Assembly: GCA_964016885.1 (NCBI GenBank)
Contig: CAXHJY010001310.1
Coordinates: 1 to 50,688, forward strand
Direction: 5' to 3'
DNA from: Eledone cirrhosa
Lineage: Eukaryota
Length of the DNA stretch: 50,688 nt
Shown: piece after piece, positions 12,401 through 24,000 of the stretch
How positions within the stretch are numbered: the stretch's first letter is position 1
Layout of the letters: every line of letters starts with the position of its first letter
The notes under the pieces: generated by a model
Databases searched by the model: none
The model's input: the letters and a program-made list of their open reading frames with translations, nothing else
What the model was told of the DNA's origin: nothing
Translations under genes and position numbers: made by a program

Positions 12401-14694
12401 TAGTAGTAGTAGCAGTAATGGTAGTAGTAGTAGCAGTAATGGTAGTAGTAGTAGCAGTAATGGTAGTAGTAGCAGCAGTAATGGTGGTAGTAGTAGCAGT
12501 AATGGTAGTAGTAGCAGCAGTAATGGTAGTAGTAGTAGCAGTAATGGTAGTAGTAGTAGCAGTAATGGTAGTAGTAGTAGCAGTAATGGTAGTAGTAGTA
12601 GCAGTAATGGTAGTAGTAGTAGCAGTAATGGTAGTAGTAGTAGCAGTAATGGTAGTAGTAGTAGCAGTAATGGTAGTAGTAGCAGCAGTAATGGTGGTAG
12701 TAGTAGCAGTAATGGTAGTAGTAGCAGCAGTAATGGTAGTAGTAGTAGCAGTAATGGTAGTAGTAGTAGCAGTAATGGTAGTAGTAGTAGCAGTAATGGT
12801 AGTAGTAGTAGCAGTAATGGTAGTAGTAGTAGCAGTAATGGTAGTAGTAGTAGTAGTAATGGTAGTAGTAGTAGTAGTAGCAGTAATGGTAGTAGTAGTA
12901 GCAGTAATGGTAGTAGTAGCAGCAGTAATGGTAGTAGTAGTAGCAGTAATGGTAGTAGTAGTAGCAGTAATGGTAGTAGTAGCAGCAGTAATGGTAGTAG
13001 TAGTAGCAGTAATGGTAGTAGTAGTAGCAGTAATGGTAGTAGTAGCAGCAGTAATGGTAGTAGTAGTAGCAGTAATGGTAGTAGTAGTAGCAGTAATGGT
13101 AGTAGTAGCAGCAGTAATGGTAGTAGTAGTAGCAGTAATGGTAGTAGTAGTAGCAGTAATGGTAGTAGTAGCAGCAGTAATGGTAGTAGTAGTAGCAGTA
13201 ATGGTAGTAGTAGCAGCAGTAATGGTAGTAGTAGCAGCAGTAATGGTAGTAGTAGTAGCAGTAATGGTAGTAGTAGTAGCAGTAATGGTAGTAGTAGCAG
13301 CAGTAATGGTAGTAGTAGTAGCAGTAATGGTAGTAGTAGTAGCAGTAATGGTAGTAGTAGTAGCAGTAATGGTAGTAGTAGTAACAGCAGTAATGGTGGT
13401 AGTAGTAGTAGTAGTAACAGCAGTAATAGTAGTAGTAGCAGTAATGGTAGTAGTAGTAGTAGCAGTAATGGTAGTAGTAGCAGCAGTAATGGTAGTAGTA
13501 GTAGTAGTAACAGCAGTAATAGTAGTAGTAGCAGCAGTAATGGTAGTAGTAGTAGTAGTAACAGCAGTAATAGTAGTAGTAGTAGCAGTAATGGTAGTAG
13601 TAGTAGTAGCAGTAATGGTAGTTGTAGCAGCAGTAATGGTAGTAGTAGTAGTAGTAATGGTAGTGTAGTAGTAGTAACAGCAGTAATGGTAGTAGTAGTA
13701 GTAGTAACAGCAGTAATGGTAGTAGTAGTAGCAGTAATGGTAGTAGTAGTAGCAGTAATGGTAGTAGTAGCAGCAGTAATGGTAGTAGTAGTAGTAGTAA
13801 CAGCAGTAATGGTAGTAGTAGCAGCAGTAATGGTAGTAGTAGTAGTAGTAACAGCAGTAATAGTAGTAGTAGTAGCAGTAATGGTAGTAGTAGTAGTAGC
13901 AGTAATGGTAGTTGTAGCAGCAGTAATGGTAGTAGTAGTAGTAGTAATGGTAGTGTAGTAGTAGTAACAGCAGTAATGGTAGTAGTAGTAGTAGTAACAG
14001 CAGTAATGGTAGTAGTAGTAGTAGTAGTAGTAGCAGCAGTAATGGTAGTAGTAGTAACAGTAATGGTAGTAGTAACAGCAGTAATGGTAGTAGTAGTAAC
14101 AGTAATGGTAGTAGTAGTAGCAGTAATGGTAGTAGTAGCAGTAGTAATGGTAGTAGTAGCAGCAGTAATGGTAGTAGTAGCAGCAGTAATGGTGGTAGTA
14201 GTAGTAACAGCAGTAATGGTGGTAGTAGTAGTAGTAGTAGCAGCAGTAATAGTAGTAGTAGCAGTAATGGTAGTAGTAGTAGTAGTAACAGCAGTAATAG
14301 TAGTAGTAGTAGTAGCAGTAATGGTAGTAGTAGTAGTAGCAGTAATGGTAGTAGTAGCAGCAGTAATGGTAGTAGTAGTAGTAGTAATGGTAGTGTAGTA
14401 GTAGTAACAGCAGTAATGGTAGTAGTAGTAGTAGTAACAGCAGTAATGGTAGTAGTAGCAGCAGTAATGGTAGTAGTAGTAGTAGTAATGGTAGTAGTAG
14501 CAGCAGTAATGGTAGTAGTAGTAACAGCAGTAATGATGGTAGTAGTAGTAGTAGTAGTAGTAGTAGCAGCAGTAATGGTGGTAGTAGTAGTAGTAGTAGC
14601 AGCAGTAATGGTAGTAGTAGTAGTAGCGGCAGTACTAATAATAGTAGTAGCAGTAGTAGCCATAGTAGTAGTAGTAGCTGCAGTAGTAGTAGTA
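9447..14694. repeat. 5.2-kb trinucleotide-based minisatellite, unit about 21 bp (GTA)n(GCA)1-2GTAATG, filling WARS1 intron 4
   Basis: Directly visible; occupies more than 99% of the 5278-bp intron 9426-14703. Confidence 0.98.
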
Positions 14695-16238: not shown

Positions 16239-16279
<41 letters not shown>

Positions 16280-16425
16280 AAGTATTTCCGAAGAAAAAGC
16301 AAAGGATAAAGAGTGCTCTATGTATAATACAGAGCTATTTAATTAGAAAGTGAACAACAAAATATATATATATACATACATATATATATATATGTATATA
16401 CATATATATGTATGTATATACATAC

Positions 16426-18342: not shown

Positions 18343-18522
18343 TATAATTCTTTAAAGTCTAAGCGTATTATATATTCACCAGGCTAAAAATTCTAATTTA
18401 GTCCAGAAATAGCCATCGAAACGGCTTGAGCTCTGCCGTCGGGGTCATACTTTTTCCTATATATATATATATATATATTAATTCAAAATATTAACAAAAA
18501 TAGACATTTGTGTGATCAAGTA

Positions 18523-18589
18523 TATTTTATTATACATATTTCAGAGGTACTGAGCTATCTTCAACAGTACGTCCTCATCAGATAAAATA
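18523..18589 (-). ncRNA. Hammerhead ribozyme motif in PLE end fragment (about 18478-18640)
   Basis: tattttat-CTGATGA-ggacgtactg..cagtacctct-GAAA-tatgta-TA-ataaaata; perfect 8-bp stem I. Confidence 0.85.
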
Positions 18590-18689
18590 AGATGATGCAT
18601 GACATACCCTGACATAGTAGATGGTTAAGATTCAGTCATCTATTGTAAAACTCATTCTTTGATTTATTCATTGAACCTTGTTTAACCTT

Positions 18690-18897: not shown

Positions 18898-19587
18898 ACC
18901 CTTGCTGCTACTTATTGCACCAGAGCACCGGCCACATATAAAATCTATGTTCTTAGTTAGCTTACCTGTGATCCCACTACATCTTTTATGCAGCCATACT
19001 TTGCATTTGGGACATAAAATGGAGTTTCTACTTACTCCTTTCCTACACACTGAGCATGCCCATTTCCCGGATGGGACCGGTGCCCTATTTTCCTTCCTAC
19101 AAACTAGAACTTTAGCCTTAGACAGGTTAATTTTAAGGCCTTTTGATTCTAGGCCATGCTTCCATGTTTGGAATTTCTTCTCTAGTTCGGTCATTGATTC
19201 AGCTATGAGCGTTAGATCATCTGTGTATAGGAGTTCCCATGGACAGCCGGTCTTGAACTCAATTGTTATAGCCTGAAGGGCAATAATAAATAGTAGGGGG
19301 CTAAGAACGGAGCCCTGATGAACACCAACTTTTACGCTAAACTCTTCACTATATTCGTTGTTAATTCTAACCTTGCTGACTGTTTCTTTATACATGGCTT
19401 GTATAGCTCTCACAAGCCATTCATCAACACCTAGTTTTCTAAGAGCCCACCAGATAATGGAACGGGGGGACTCTGTCGAAGGCTTTCTCCAAGTCGACAA
19501 AAGCTAAGTATAGGGGTTTACTTTTAGCTAGGTACTTCTCCTATAGTTGTCTTACAATGAAAAGAGCGTCTGTGGTACTTTTACCTA
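18898..19587 (-). mobile_element. RTE subfamily B internal fragment (RT + PHD), degenerate
   Basis: High identity to about 45205-45890; stop and frameshift near 19470-19543; YTDD. Confidence 0.92.
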
Positions 19588-19822
19588 TACCACTAAACAT
19601 GTCCGACGACCCATTGATTACAGAGTCGGGCCAGATGGATACAGATTGAACCTTGAGCTGATCAATAGCGAAACATGTGTCACCAACCAATAAAAGTAAT
19701 GAAGGAGTAACTATTTGTCCTTGTTTTATATTATTATATATATATATATGTATGTACACAACAACATACACATATATATACAATATATTAACAAATGGAA
19801 ACTATATTTATAAAACCATATT

Positions 19823-19887
19823 TATTTCATTATACATATTTCAAGGACACCAAAGCAAATTATGGTGCGCTTTCATCAGATAAAATA
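19823..19887 (-). ncRNA. Hammerhead ribozyme motif (mirror copy, sense in WARS1 intron 1)
   Basis: Reverse complement of 20036-20100. Confidence 0.85.
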
Positions 19888-20035
19888 TAATATAGAGCAG
19901 TTTTATAAACAAATATTGACATACCCTTAAAAGAATGCGACCATGTCTGTTGGAAGCTCCCGGATAGTTCCAACAGACATGGTCGCATTCTTTTAAGGGT
20001 ATGTCAATATTTGTTTATAAAACTGATCTATATTA

Positions 20036-20100
20036 TATTTTATCTGATGAAAGCGCACCATAATTTGCTTTGGTGTCCTTGAAATATGTATAATGAAATA
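20036..20100 (+). ncRNA. Hammerhead ribozyme motif
   Basis: tattttat-CTGATGA-aagcgcacca..tggtgtcctt-GAAA-tatgta-TA-atgaaata. Confidence 0.85.
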
Positions 20101-20229
20101 AATATGGTTTTAAAAATATAGTTTCCATTTGTTAATATATTGTATTTTTACTCCAAAAATTTGTTGAGTGCTTTATATCAGTTATAAACATATTTGCTTG
20201 TTGTATCCCAACAAATTAAATATAACTTC

Positions 20230-20268
<39 letters not shown>

Positions 20269-21629: not shown

Positions 21630-21781
21630 AGTTTATCCCGGGTTCAATCGGGGGTAACCACAGTAAGTAAGGTACCCAATACATAGCAGAGTATAAATAT
21701 TTAATATAGAAATGACTTCTACAGGACTACTTCCTGATGATTTCTCCCGACTGAAACAGTTCTAGTCCTGTATAAGCCATT

Positions 21782-21790
<9 letters not shown>
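21630..21790. mobile_element. 160-bp miniature family-B PLE fold-back with hammerhead core (about 21730-21776, +)
   Basis: Tail homologous to 35258-35324, about 28-bp inverted arms, CTGATGA..GAAACAG..CTGTA; TA flanks. Confidence 0.75.
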
Positions 21791-23853: not shown

Positions 23854-23893
<40 letters not shown>

Positions 23894-23933
23894 TTCAAAT
23901 ATTAACAAAATAGATATTCTTGTGATCAATTAA

Positions 23934-24000
23934 ATTTTATTATACATATTTCAGAGGTACTTGAATCAGATTCAACAGTACGTCCTCATCAGATAAAATA
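23934..24000 (-). ncRNA. Hammerhead ribozyme motif in PLE end fragment (about 23890-24068)
   Basis: Second copy of the 18478-18640 fragment with the same core and a variant loop II. Confidence 0.8.

What the first reader, a model, noticed from the sequence alone, without database searches (positions are those of the whole stretch)
20146..20232. Covarying small hairpin marks the arm/tail junction in otherwise dissimilar PLE families
Seen: a few nt beyond the point where the tail-less arm is joined to (TA)n, every tail starts with a 5-bp stem and 11-12 nt loop. TACTC-N12-GAGTG (20149-20170, 29235-29256); TACTC-N11-GAGTA (35320-35300, minus); TACTC-N11-GGGTA (21692-21673, minus, G.U wobble). TA-flanked orphan pieces at about 4640-4710 and 16277-16345 show a (G)CTCT-N11-12-AGAG(C) variant. 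Families A and B share little other sequence. Inference: a structural landmark positioning RT priming on the RNA, conceptually like a telomerase template-boundary element (PLE RTs are established relatives of TERT).
Basis: partly seen in the sequence, partly recalled or inferred. Interest (0 to 1): 0.78.

Follow-up and report, generated by a model that had tools for sequence, protein, structure and literature searches.

The report
Twin hairpins marking Penelope insertion ends
In one group of Penelope-like jumping genes a short hairpin-forming motif, shared by dozens of distantly related families, occurs twice, and the two kinds of insertion end mostly fall a few bases before one copy or the other, so it likely tells the element's reverse transcriptase where to start copying.

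Summary
The hairpins are real, and larger and more widespread than reported. The elements are Hydra-clade Penelope-like elements (PLEs), not Naiads. The motif is RCUC-[stem-loop]-UN bulge-GAGY-RC. In Hydra-clade loci picked by protein alone, 42 of 45 families carry it upstream of the ORF and 30 of 45 carry two copies, 54-83 nt apart (controls: 2 of 359 ORF windows). The lower stem is almost invariant; the upper stem covaries (first pair 86 of 87, with repeated switches on the tree). Tail-less ends map about 5 nt before copy 1 and tail ends about 3-8 nt before copy 2, so the tail is the spacing between the copies. Inverted insertions pair one end of each kind (39 of 40). A UA-rich patch sits 4-8 nt before each copy. 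Likely mechanism: each hairpin anchors the RT, and nicked (TA)n DNA primes at the UA patch. This is inferred; there are no RNA or biochemical data. Internal initiation at two sites near a stem-loop is published for one Poseidon PLE; this motif was not found in print. The scan noted one copy before in another genome. The telomerase template-boundary analogy has the wrong polarity.

The parts
19778..20233 (.). Family A insertion 1: inverted arms; tail-less end (J) at left, tail end (T) at right, both joined to TA-type repeats
   Evidence: self-BLAST 19826-20097 palindrome; ends read
20044..20091 (+). Type I hammerhead core of the tail-bearing arm, to the predicted cleavage site
   Evidence: descriptor; activity not tested
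20150..20171 (+). Hairpin copy 1 (SL1), family A: 4-bp lower stem, 3-bp upper stem, TT bulge
20146..20233 (+). Tail, from J to T; in full-length copies hairpin copy 2 (SL2) follows 7 nt after T
26360..29319 (.). Family A insertion 2: long J arm on minus strand with ORF remnant and 1.5-kb 3' UTR, short inverted T arm on plus strand
27859..28392 (-). ORF remnant: thumb end, CxCx5C linker and GIY-YIG-type endonuclease of a Hydra-clade PLE
   Evidence: 150 scored genome matches at 98-100%; no Pfam hit
29236..29257 (+). SL1 of insertion 2
   Evidence: z -2.7
35257..39686 (.). Family B insertion: large inverted repeat, T end at 35257, J end at about 39686, hammerhead cores at 35385 (-) and 39624 (+)
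35299..35319 (-). SL1 of family B
21630..21790 (.). Older family B mini inverted insertion; SL1 at 21692-21672 (-) with a G-U pair; J end about 9 nt before SL1
16277..16355 (-). Family C tail fragment with SL1 at 16335-16313
4641..4715 (-). Family C tail fragment with SL1 at 4696-4675 (first pair mismatched)
18418..18460 (+). Tail-less arm of a further family (I) whose tail-bearing copies elsewhere carry the same hairpin 5 nt after J

Best explanation
These are tails of Hydra-clade Penelope-like retrotransposons whose leader carries two copies of a conserved bulged-hairpin motif, with insertion ends mapping a few bases before either copy, and each copy likely anchors the element's reverse transcriptase so that copying starts there. 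Shown: motif, duplication, covariation, end positions, a UA-rich patch 4-8 nt 5' of each copy, and one-of-each pairing of ends in inverted insertions. Inferred: the protein reads the invariant lower stem, bulge and 3' flank on the sense RNA; the endonuclease nicks both strands of (TA)n; each 3' end pairs over 2-5 nt with a UA patch; one cDNA starts before SL1 (tail-less arm) and the other before SL2 (tail-bearing arm); the two 5'-truncated cDNAs are joined head to head. A protein dimer on one RNA, one subunit per hairpin, would give the pairing most simply, but is untested for this clade.
For: Prevalence in protein-selected loci: 42 of 45 families, two copies in 30 of 45; controls 2 of 359 ORF windows and 6 of 450 shuffles. 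Covariation with no pairing filter, 87 instances from 51 families: positions 5, 6, 7 paired in 86 of 87, 65 of 85, 48 of 59, above all 2000 shuffles, and only in the 2-nt-bulge register; bulge starts with U in 86 of 87; G-U 14, A-C 3. Independent count on 12 equal-length hairpins: 0 of 500 shuffles reach the score. At least 7, 10 and 6 double-sided switches at SL1 positions 5-7 on a 41-protein tree. Ends: family A J 30 of 31 at 2-6 nt, T 27 of 29 assigned at 3-8 nt; family I 11 of 18 at exactly 5 nt; other species 28 of 46 alignment ends within 0-12 nt, 11 at SL1 and 17 at SL2. UA patch 68 of 83 against 22 and 23 of 83. Inverted pairs J+T 39 of 40, 50% expected. Family B tail-bearing 6935 against about 6200 tail-less. 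Mini-units keep both hairpins, one without the hammerhead (L321, L323). Precedent: two internal RT starts bounding the tail, both strands nicked and extended, in PAc (PMC11167929).
Against: All evidence is genomic; no RNA, binding or activity data. Family B has a second tail-less end 12 nt before SL1 (1604 against about 4600), and its older subfamilies gave scattered offsets (6 of 22 within -1 to 6 nt). 18 of 46 cross-species ends lie further away; many are visibly my extension stopping at polymorphisms, a few are real. SL2 of family B has lost the upper stem and SL2 of family C has a 60-nt insert, yet T ends stay in place. Twenty short 8-nt-inner hairpins show no covariation beyond shuffles. 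Single window hairpins are weak folders (z -2.7 to +0.5). Full-length genomic units end at T and lack SL2 downstream of the ORF (L326-L329), so a T start needs read-through, a circle or a template jump that I could not show. Other PLE families here have precise ends and tails without this motif.
Confidence: 0.63

Rival explanations
1. The motif is a DNA-level signal: an inverted repeat bound by the endonuclease or extruded on single-stranded cDNA, guiding cutting or resolution of the intermediate.
For: The GCTC/GAGC arms are an inverted repeat and nearly invariant. In D. virilis Penelope the tail was needed for endonuclease recognition of DNA, as reported in PMC11167929, and Craig 2021 suggests endonuclease resolution makes the tail.
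Against: Inner length varies from 6 to 24 nt, the upper stem covaries, and G-U outnumbers A-C 14 to 3 on the sense strand. In PAc the tail ends equal RT starts.
Confidence: 0.13
2. The hairpins serve translation, stability or packaging of the leader RNA, and ends are set only by TA microhomology that happens to lie nearby.
For: SL2 lies just before the start codon; junctions do overlap UA patches, and family B uses a second patch 12 nt upstream.
Against: The family A leader holds 13 TA-type patches between the predicted cleavage site and T, and ends use two. The patch itself is conserved at -4 to -8 from the hairpin. Non-coding mini-units keep both hairpins.
Confidence: 0.12
3. There is one RT start (T); the tail-less end arises when fold-back or second-strand synthesis stops at SL1, which then works as a boundary like a telomerase TBE (closest to the first reader's analogy, and to self-priming models).
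For: One-of-each pairing is also expected from fold-back; self-priming on an antisense template was proposed for head-to-head PLE repeats (PMC3846280, passages).
Against: Window insertion 2 has a 2.6-kb J arm and a 0.3-kb T arm, so each arm holds sequence the other lacks and neither can be a copy of the other; long arms ending at T also exist (L122, L125). Both ends have the same geometry to a motif copy.
Confidence: 0.1

Closest known systems
PAc, Poseidon-clade PLE of Anolis carolinensis (Frangieh et al. 2024, PMC11167929)
   Same: Two internal start sites bounding the genomic tail; AT-rich target; hammerhead upstream; a stem-loop at the start region; dimer predicted.
   Different: [quoted passage not shown] S1 does not show this motif by eye. 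Here a conserved motif sits 3' of each end in the untranslated leader, a UA patch matches the target, and tails are 54-83 nt, not 30-40.
Hydra clade of PLEs (Craig et al. 2021, PMC8557442)
   Same: C-terminal endonuclease, RWK-type, DKT, CxCx5C, CxxC and CxH motifs, canonical hammerhead, (TA)n targets. The motif is visible by eye in the published coral, sea-cucumber and copepod consensus sequences.
   Different: The sections and passages I read do not describe the hairpin, its duplication or its relation to the tail. Family A units are about 3.9 kb, longer than the usual <3 kb.
Telomerase RNA template boundary element and alignment region (PMC4993307)
   Same: Template-adjacent helix with conserved base proposed to bind a related RT; short 3' alignment stretch that pairs with a repeat primer. 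The family A model's best structural match is TERT.
   Different: The TBE is 5' of the template and stops synthesis; this hairpin is 3' of the start. The UA patch, not the hairpin, is the closer telomerase parallel. No homology of the RNAs was shown.
Twin priming of LINE-1 (recalled, not from a call)
   Same: Both target strands prime cDNA, giving an inversion.
   Different: In L1 the second primer anneals at variable internal sites and the arms do not overlap; here both starts are fixed and the arms overlap.

Membership tests
Hydra-clade PLE | Single ORF, RT followed by C-terminal GIY-YIG endonuclease | tested here: met
   Intact 737-739 aa ORFs in family A; domain order; fold matches RTs, TERT first. 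Pfam gave no hit.
Hydra-clade PLE | RWK-type motif and DKT in place of DKG | tested here: met
   RWR and DKT in families A and B; family C ORF is degenerate but 26-47% identical to A and B; definition
Hydra-clade PLE | CxCx5C linker; no CCHH; CxxC and CxH around the conserved E and N | tested here: met
   Family A; C-termini of B and C not examined
Hydra-clade PLE | Canonical hammerhead motif in the pLTR | tested here: met
   Descriptor hits in A, B, C; not among the 150 of 368 Rfam rows listed; cleavage not tested
Hydra-clade PLE | Insertion into (TA)n | tested here: met
Hydra-clade PLE | Phylogenetic placement with the published reference proteins | not tested
   References were compared by eye only; the tree holds no named reference
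Naiad PLE | N-terminal endonuclease | tested here: not met
   Endonuclease is C-terminal
Naiad PLE | Lack of a canonical hammerhead | tested here: not met
   Cores with stems present
Telomerase template boundary element | Helix 5' of the template that stops synthesis | tested here: not met
   Motif lies 3' of the ends on the sense strand; definition
PAc-type internal initiation element | Two fixed positions bounding the tail | tested here: met
PAc-type internal initiation element | RT shown to initiate there on RNA | not testable with these tools
   needs an in vitro assay

The most novel reading that the evidence does not exclude
Hydra-clade PLEs carry a duplicated, cross-phylum RNA anchor: one RT-endonuclease dimer binds both hairpins of one RNA, nicks both strands of (TA)n, aligns each 3' end on a telomerase-like UA patch and starts two cDNAs at once. 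This would explain the PLE tail and inverted arms, and define a roughly 170-nt cassette able to mobilise any RNA placed 5' of it.
Probability: 0.4. Interest if true: 0.85.

Novelty: new variant of a known kind. Interest (0 to 1): 0.7.

Why it matters
How PLEs choose internal start sites, and why insertions carry a one-sided tail and inverted arms, has been open for two decades; the one in vitro study mapped two starts in one element but no conserved determinant. A motif with deep covariation, present once per end across dozens of families of median 47% protein identity, names the bases to mutate and predicts tail length from motif spacing. Because PLE RTs are the sister group of telomerase, an anchored primer-alignment patch bears on how telomerase-like template use arose. 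A compact cis cassette in a young, abundant family with intact ORFs is also a practical handle for target-primed insertion work.

Tried and rejected
DNA similarity search of the own genome found nothing because common words are skipped; exact patterns were used instead. The Rfam scan was swamped by microsatellite hits. Pfam did not recognise the PLE protein. Viral contigs held no relatives. BLAST ends over-ran into TA repeats and strict extension stopped at polymorphisms; one search is a compromise that still leaves false ends. The first junction script merged distinct copies and crashed; one search replaces it. The p-value printed used wrong counts and is not used; one search gives the right one. 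5' breakpoints of family A arms were confounded by subfamily divergence. Naiad reading rejected; in the Naiad consensus file the five GAGCACT places seen were not canonical motifs, one doubtful (9 of 22 and 9 of 17 places seen, line breaks can hide hits). A chance hairpin was rejected.

Full report
OBSERVATION. The six hairpins are at the stated places, within one base. Window patterns give 5 matches against 0.26 expected and 2 against 0.00; the patterns came from the data, so the stronger tests are those below. Each hairpin lies in a one-sided extension of an inverted repeat joined to TA repeats. Call the tail-less end J and the tail end T.

WHAT THE ELEMENTS ARE. Exact patterns count 7803 family A tails, 33,996 family B arm motifs and 2121 family C tails in the 3.0-Gb genome. 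All three have a type I hammerhead core upstream of J. Family A is young: 150 scored matches to the window's ORF remnant are 98-100% identical, and three fetched copies have intact ORFs of 737-739 aa. The protein has RWR, DKT, a CxCx5C linker, CxxC and CxH around a C-terminal GIY-YIG-type domain, the marks of the Hydra clade. A and B are 39% identical; C is degenerate but related. The model has mean pLDDT 88 and its top structural match is TERT, as expected for any PLE. They are not Naiads.

THE MOTIF. To test this without selecting on the hairpin I fetched 90 loci by Hydra-clade protein alone (78 metagenome, 12 genome contigs, presumably host DNA; hosts not determined), forming 72 families at 85% DNA identity. 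Of these, 45 families had the N-terminus and at least 90 nt upstream: 42 carry the motif, 30 carry two copies, 3 none; controls were 2 of 359 ORF windows, 6 of 450 shuffles and 5 of 45 reverse strands. Copies are 54-83 nt apart (30 families). With detection on the lower stem and flank only, 87 instances from 51 families pair at upper positions 5, 6 and 7 in 86 of 87, 65 of 85 and 48 of 59 cases (shuffle maxima 74, 50, 34); other bulge registers do not exceed shuffles; G-U outnumbers A-C 14 to 3. Twelve equal-length hairpins gave 15 double-sided changes, 0 of 500 shuffles. Twenty short ones gave no signal, and SL2 position 5 is nearly always C-G (32 of 34), so covariation comes mainly from SL1, where a tree needs at least 7, 10 and 6 double-sided switches. 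The lower stem is nearly fixed, with a compensated GCAC/GTGC form in a few cases (L249; L246; family B SL2). By eye the motif is at the ends of the published consensus sequences from coral, sea cucumber and copepod. The family A leader folds into SL1, a middle hairpin and SL2 (z -2.5); single window hairpins are weak.

BOTH ENDS SIT BEFORE A COPY. Full-length family A continues from T through 7 nt into SL2 and then the start codon (220 pattern matches). Offsets below count from the last matching base, so microhomology shortens them. Family A, 80 distinct arms: 30 of 31 tail-less ends at 2-6 nt before SL1; 27 of 29 assigned tail ends at 3-8 nt before SL2, 9 unassigned. Family C: 10 of 12 assigned J at 0-12 nt (9 unassigned) and 17 of 17 assigned T at 3-12 nt (3 unassigned). 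Family B: only 6 of 22 assigned J within -1 to 6 nt, because the anchor caught old subfamilies without a matched reference and a second site. For young B, genome counts are 6935 running into SL1, about 4600 ending 5 nt before it (2318 forward; the reverse count is doubled by the gap) and 1604 ending 12 nt before it; the last may be a second priming patch or later slippage. Family I, met by chance, has 11 of 18 J ends at 5 nt, 1 at 2 nt, 6 unassigned. In other species 28 of 46 ends, in 21 of 26 families, lie 0-12 nt before a copy; contig ends were dropped first. A TAT/ATA patch occurs 3-11 nt upstream in 68 of 83 instances, peaking at -5, against 22 and 23 of 83 further up. Family A has 13 such patches between cleavage site and T and uses two.

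ONE END OF EACH KIND. Among 100 T and 83 J positions listed for the first 66 Mb of contig C1, outward-facing neighbours within 5 kb were J+T in 39 of 40 cases (p 3e-11); arms whose partners miss the exact patterns are not counted. Family I gave 8 J+T and 1 J+J among close pairs, by eye. Window insertion 2 has a long J arm and a short T arm, each with sequence the other lacks, so both ends need a template that held the whole element.

MECHANISM. Most likely (0.63) each hairpin is a protein anchor on the sense RNA, the nicked (TA)n end pairs with the UA patch about 5 nt 5' of it, and synthesis runs away from the hairpin. Priming of the two target strands at SL1 and SL2 gives the inverted arms and a tail as long as the motif spacing. 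Starts, binding, strand nicking and any dimer are inferred, partly from PAc. Open: genomic units end at T without SL2, so the template must regain it by read-through, circularisation (proposed in PMC4209133) or a jump. Tandem mini-units of 191 nt (hammerhead, SL1, SL2) and 169 nt (SL1 and SL2 without the hammerhead core) fit either and suggest the hairpins are the cis requirement, but rest on a few loci. Rivals: a DNA-level signal (0.13), a translation or stability element with ends set by microhomology (0.12), one start plus a stop (0.10).

SCOPE. Four other hammerhead-bearing families in this genome (13, 3, 2 and 6 arms) have TA-joined ends and no motif; their clades were not determined. The rule is so far Hydra-specific.

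WHAT IS KNOWN. PMC11167929: parts 1-2 of 4 of the text (abstract, results, discussion, start of methods) and the text layer of two supplementary figures; the figures and the GenBank file could not be seen and might show more on the PAc stem-loop. PMC8557442: passages, section 11, and supplement parts 1, 2, 52, 53 plus one search. Passages only: PMC3846280, PMC4209133, PMC4993307. Preprint 10.64898/2026.07.22.740005: parts 1-2 of 5; its supplements are closed. Seven full-text searches listed no paper on this motif; subscription papers and Repbase notes are not covered. This scan noted the same hairpin, as one copy in the tail, in another genome (e1-9578672); I saw that note after my own tests.

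VERDICT. The concept of internal initiation beside a stem-loop is published; the conserved duplicated motif, its geometry to both ends and the pairing of ends were not found in print. Interest 0.70.

Noticed in passing
L321 (G000:C4:279228800-279230300), L322, L325: Head-to-tail arrays of a 190-210 nt family B mini-unit (hammerhead, SL1, SL2, first codons), retrozyme-like; in L321 one arm ends at T and the inverted arm at J.
   Followed up: partly
L323 (G000:C2:316656200-316657300): Tandem 169-nt family A unit with SL1 and SL2 but no hammerhead core, again with one J and one T end.
   Followed up: partly
family B arms, e.g. L040, L041, L291-L320: 28 of 47 arms lose similarity 35-51 nt upstream of the predicted cleavage site, at the 5' edge of the hammerhead, and 1 of 47 at the site; the sample is biased by the search patterns and by subfamily divergence.
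   Followed up: partly
window 18418-18460; L009, L017, L158, L163: Family I arms show the GAAA box and SL1, but no CTGA-GA box in the 45 nt shown upstream.
   Followed up: partly
L268-L278: Family C SL2 keeps the lower stem, first pair and bulge but carries an insert of about 60 nt.
   Followed up: partly
L025, L060, L096, L103, L135, L153 (family D); L131, L142, L163 (E); L155 (F); L091, L152 (G): Other hammerhead-bearing, TA-targeting families; D has precise ends and a tail of about 50 nt without the motif. They may use a different signal.
   Followed up: no
window 18470-18640 and 23890-24050 (minus): Two tail-less arms of an A-like family (H) with hammerhead cores.
   Followed up: no
window 41225-44330 (+): Nearly complete non-LTR element with AP endonuclease, RT and PHD finger, one frame change, ending in (ATG)n repeats; related fragments at 18900-19586, 24068-25118 and 45086-46329.
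   Followed up: no
window 9449-14692: 5.2-kb array of 21-nt GTA/GCA-rich units.
   Followed up: no
window 28768-29020 and 26570-26810: Insertion 2 holds an internal duplicated, inverted piece of its own 3' UTR next to the inversion point.
   Followed up: no
L244-L255: Hydra-clade PLEs with (TA)n flanks lie in contigs of bacterial genome assemblies, probably animal host DNA carried into the bins.
   Followed up: no
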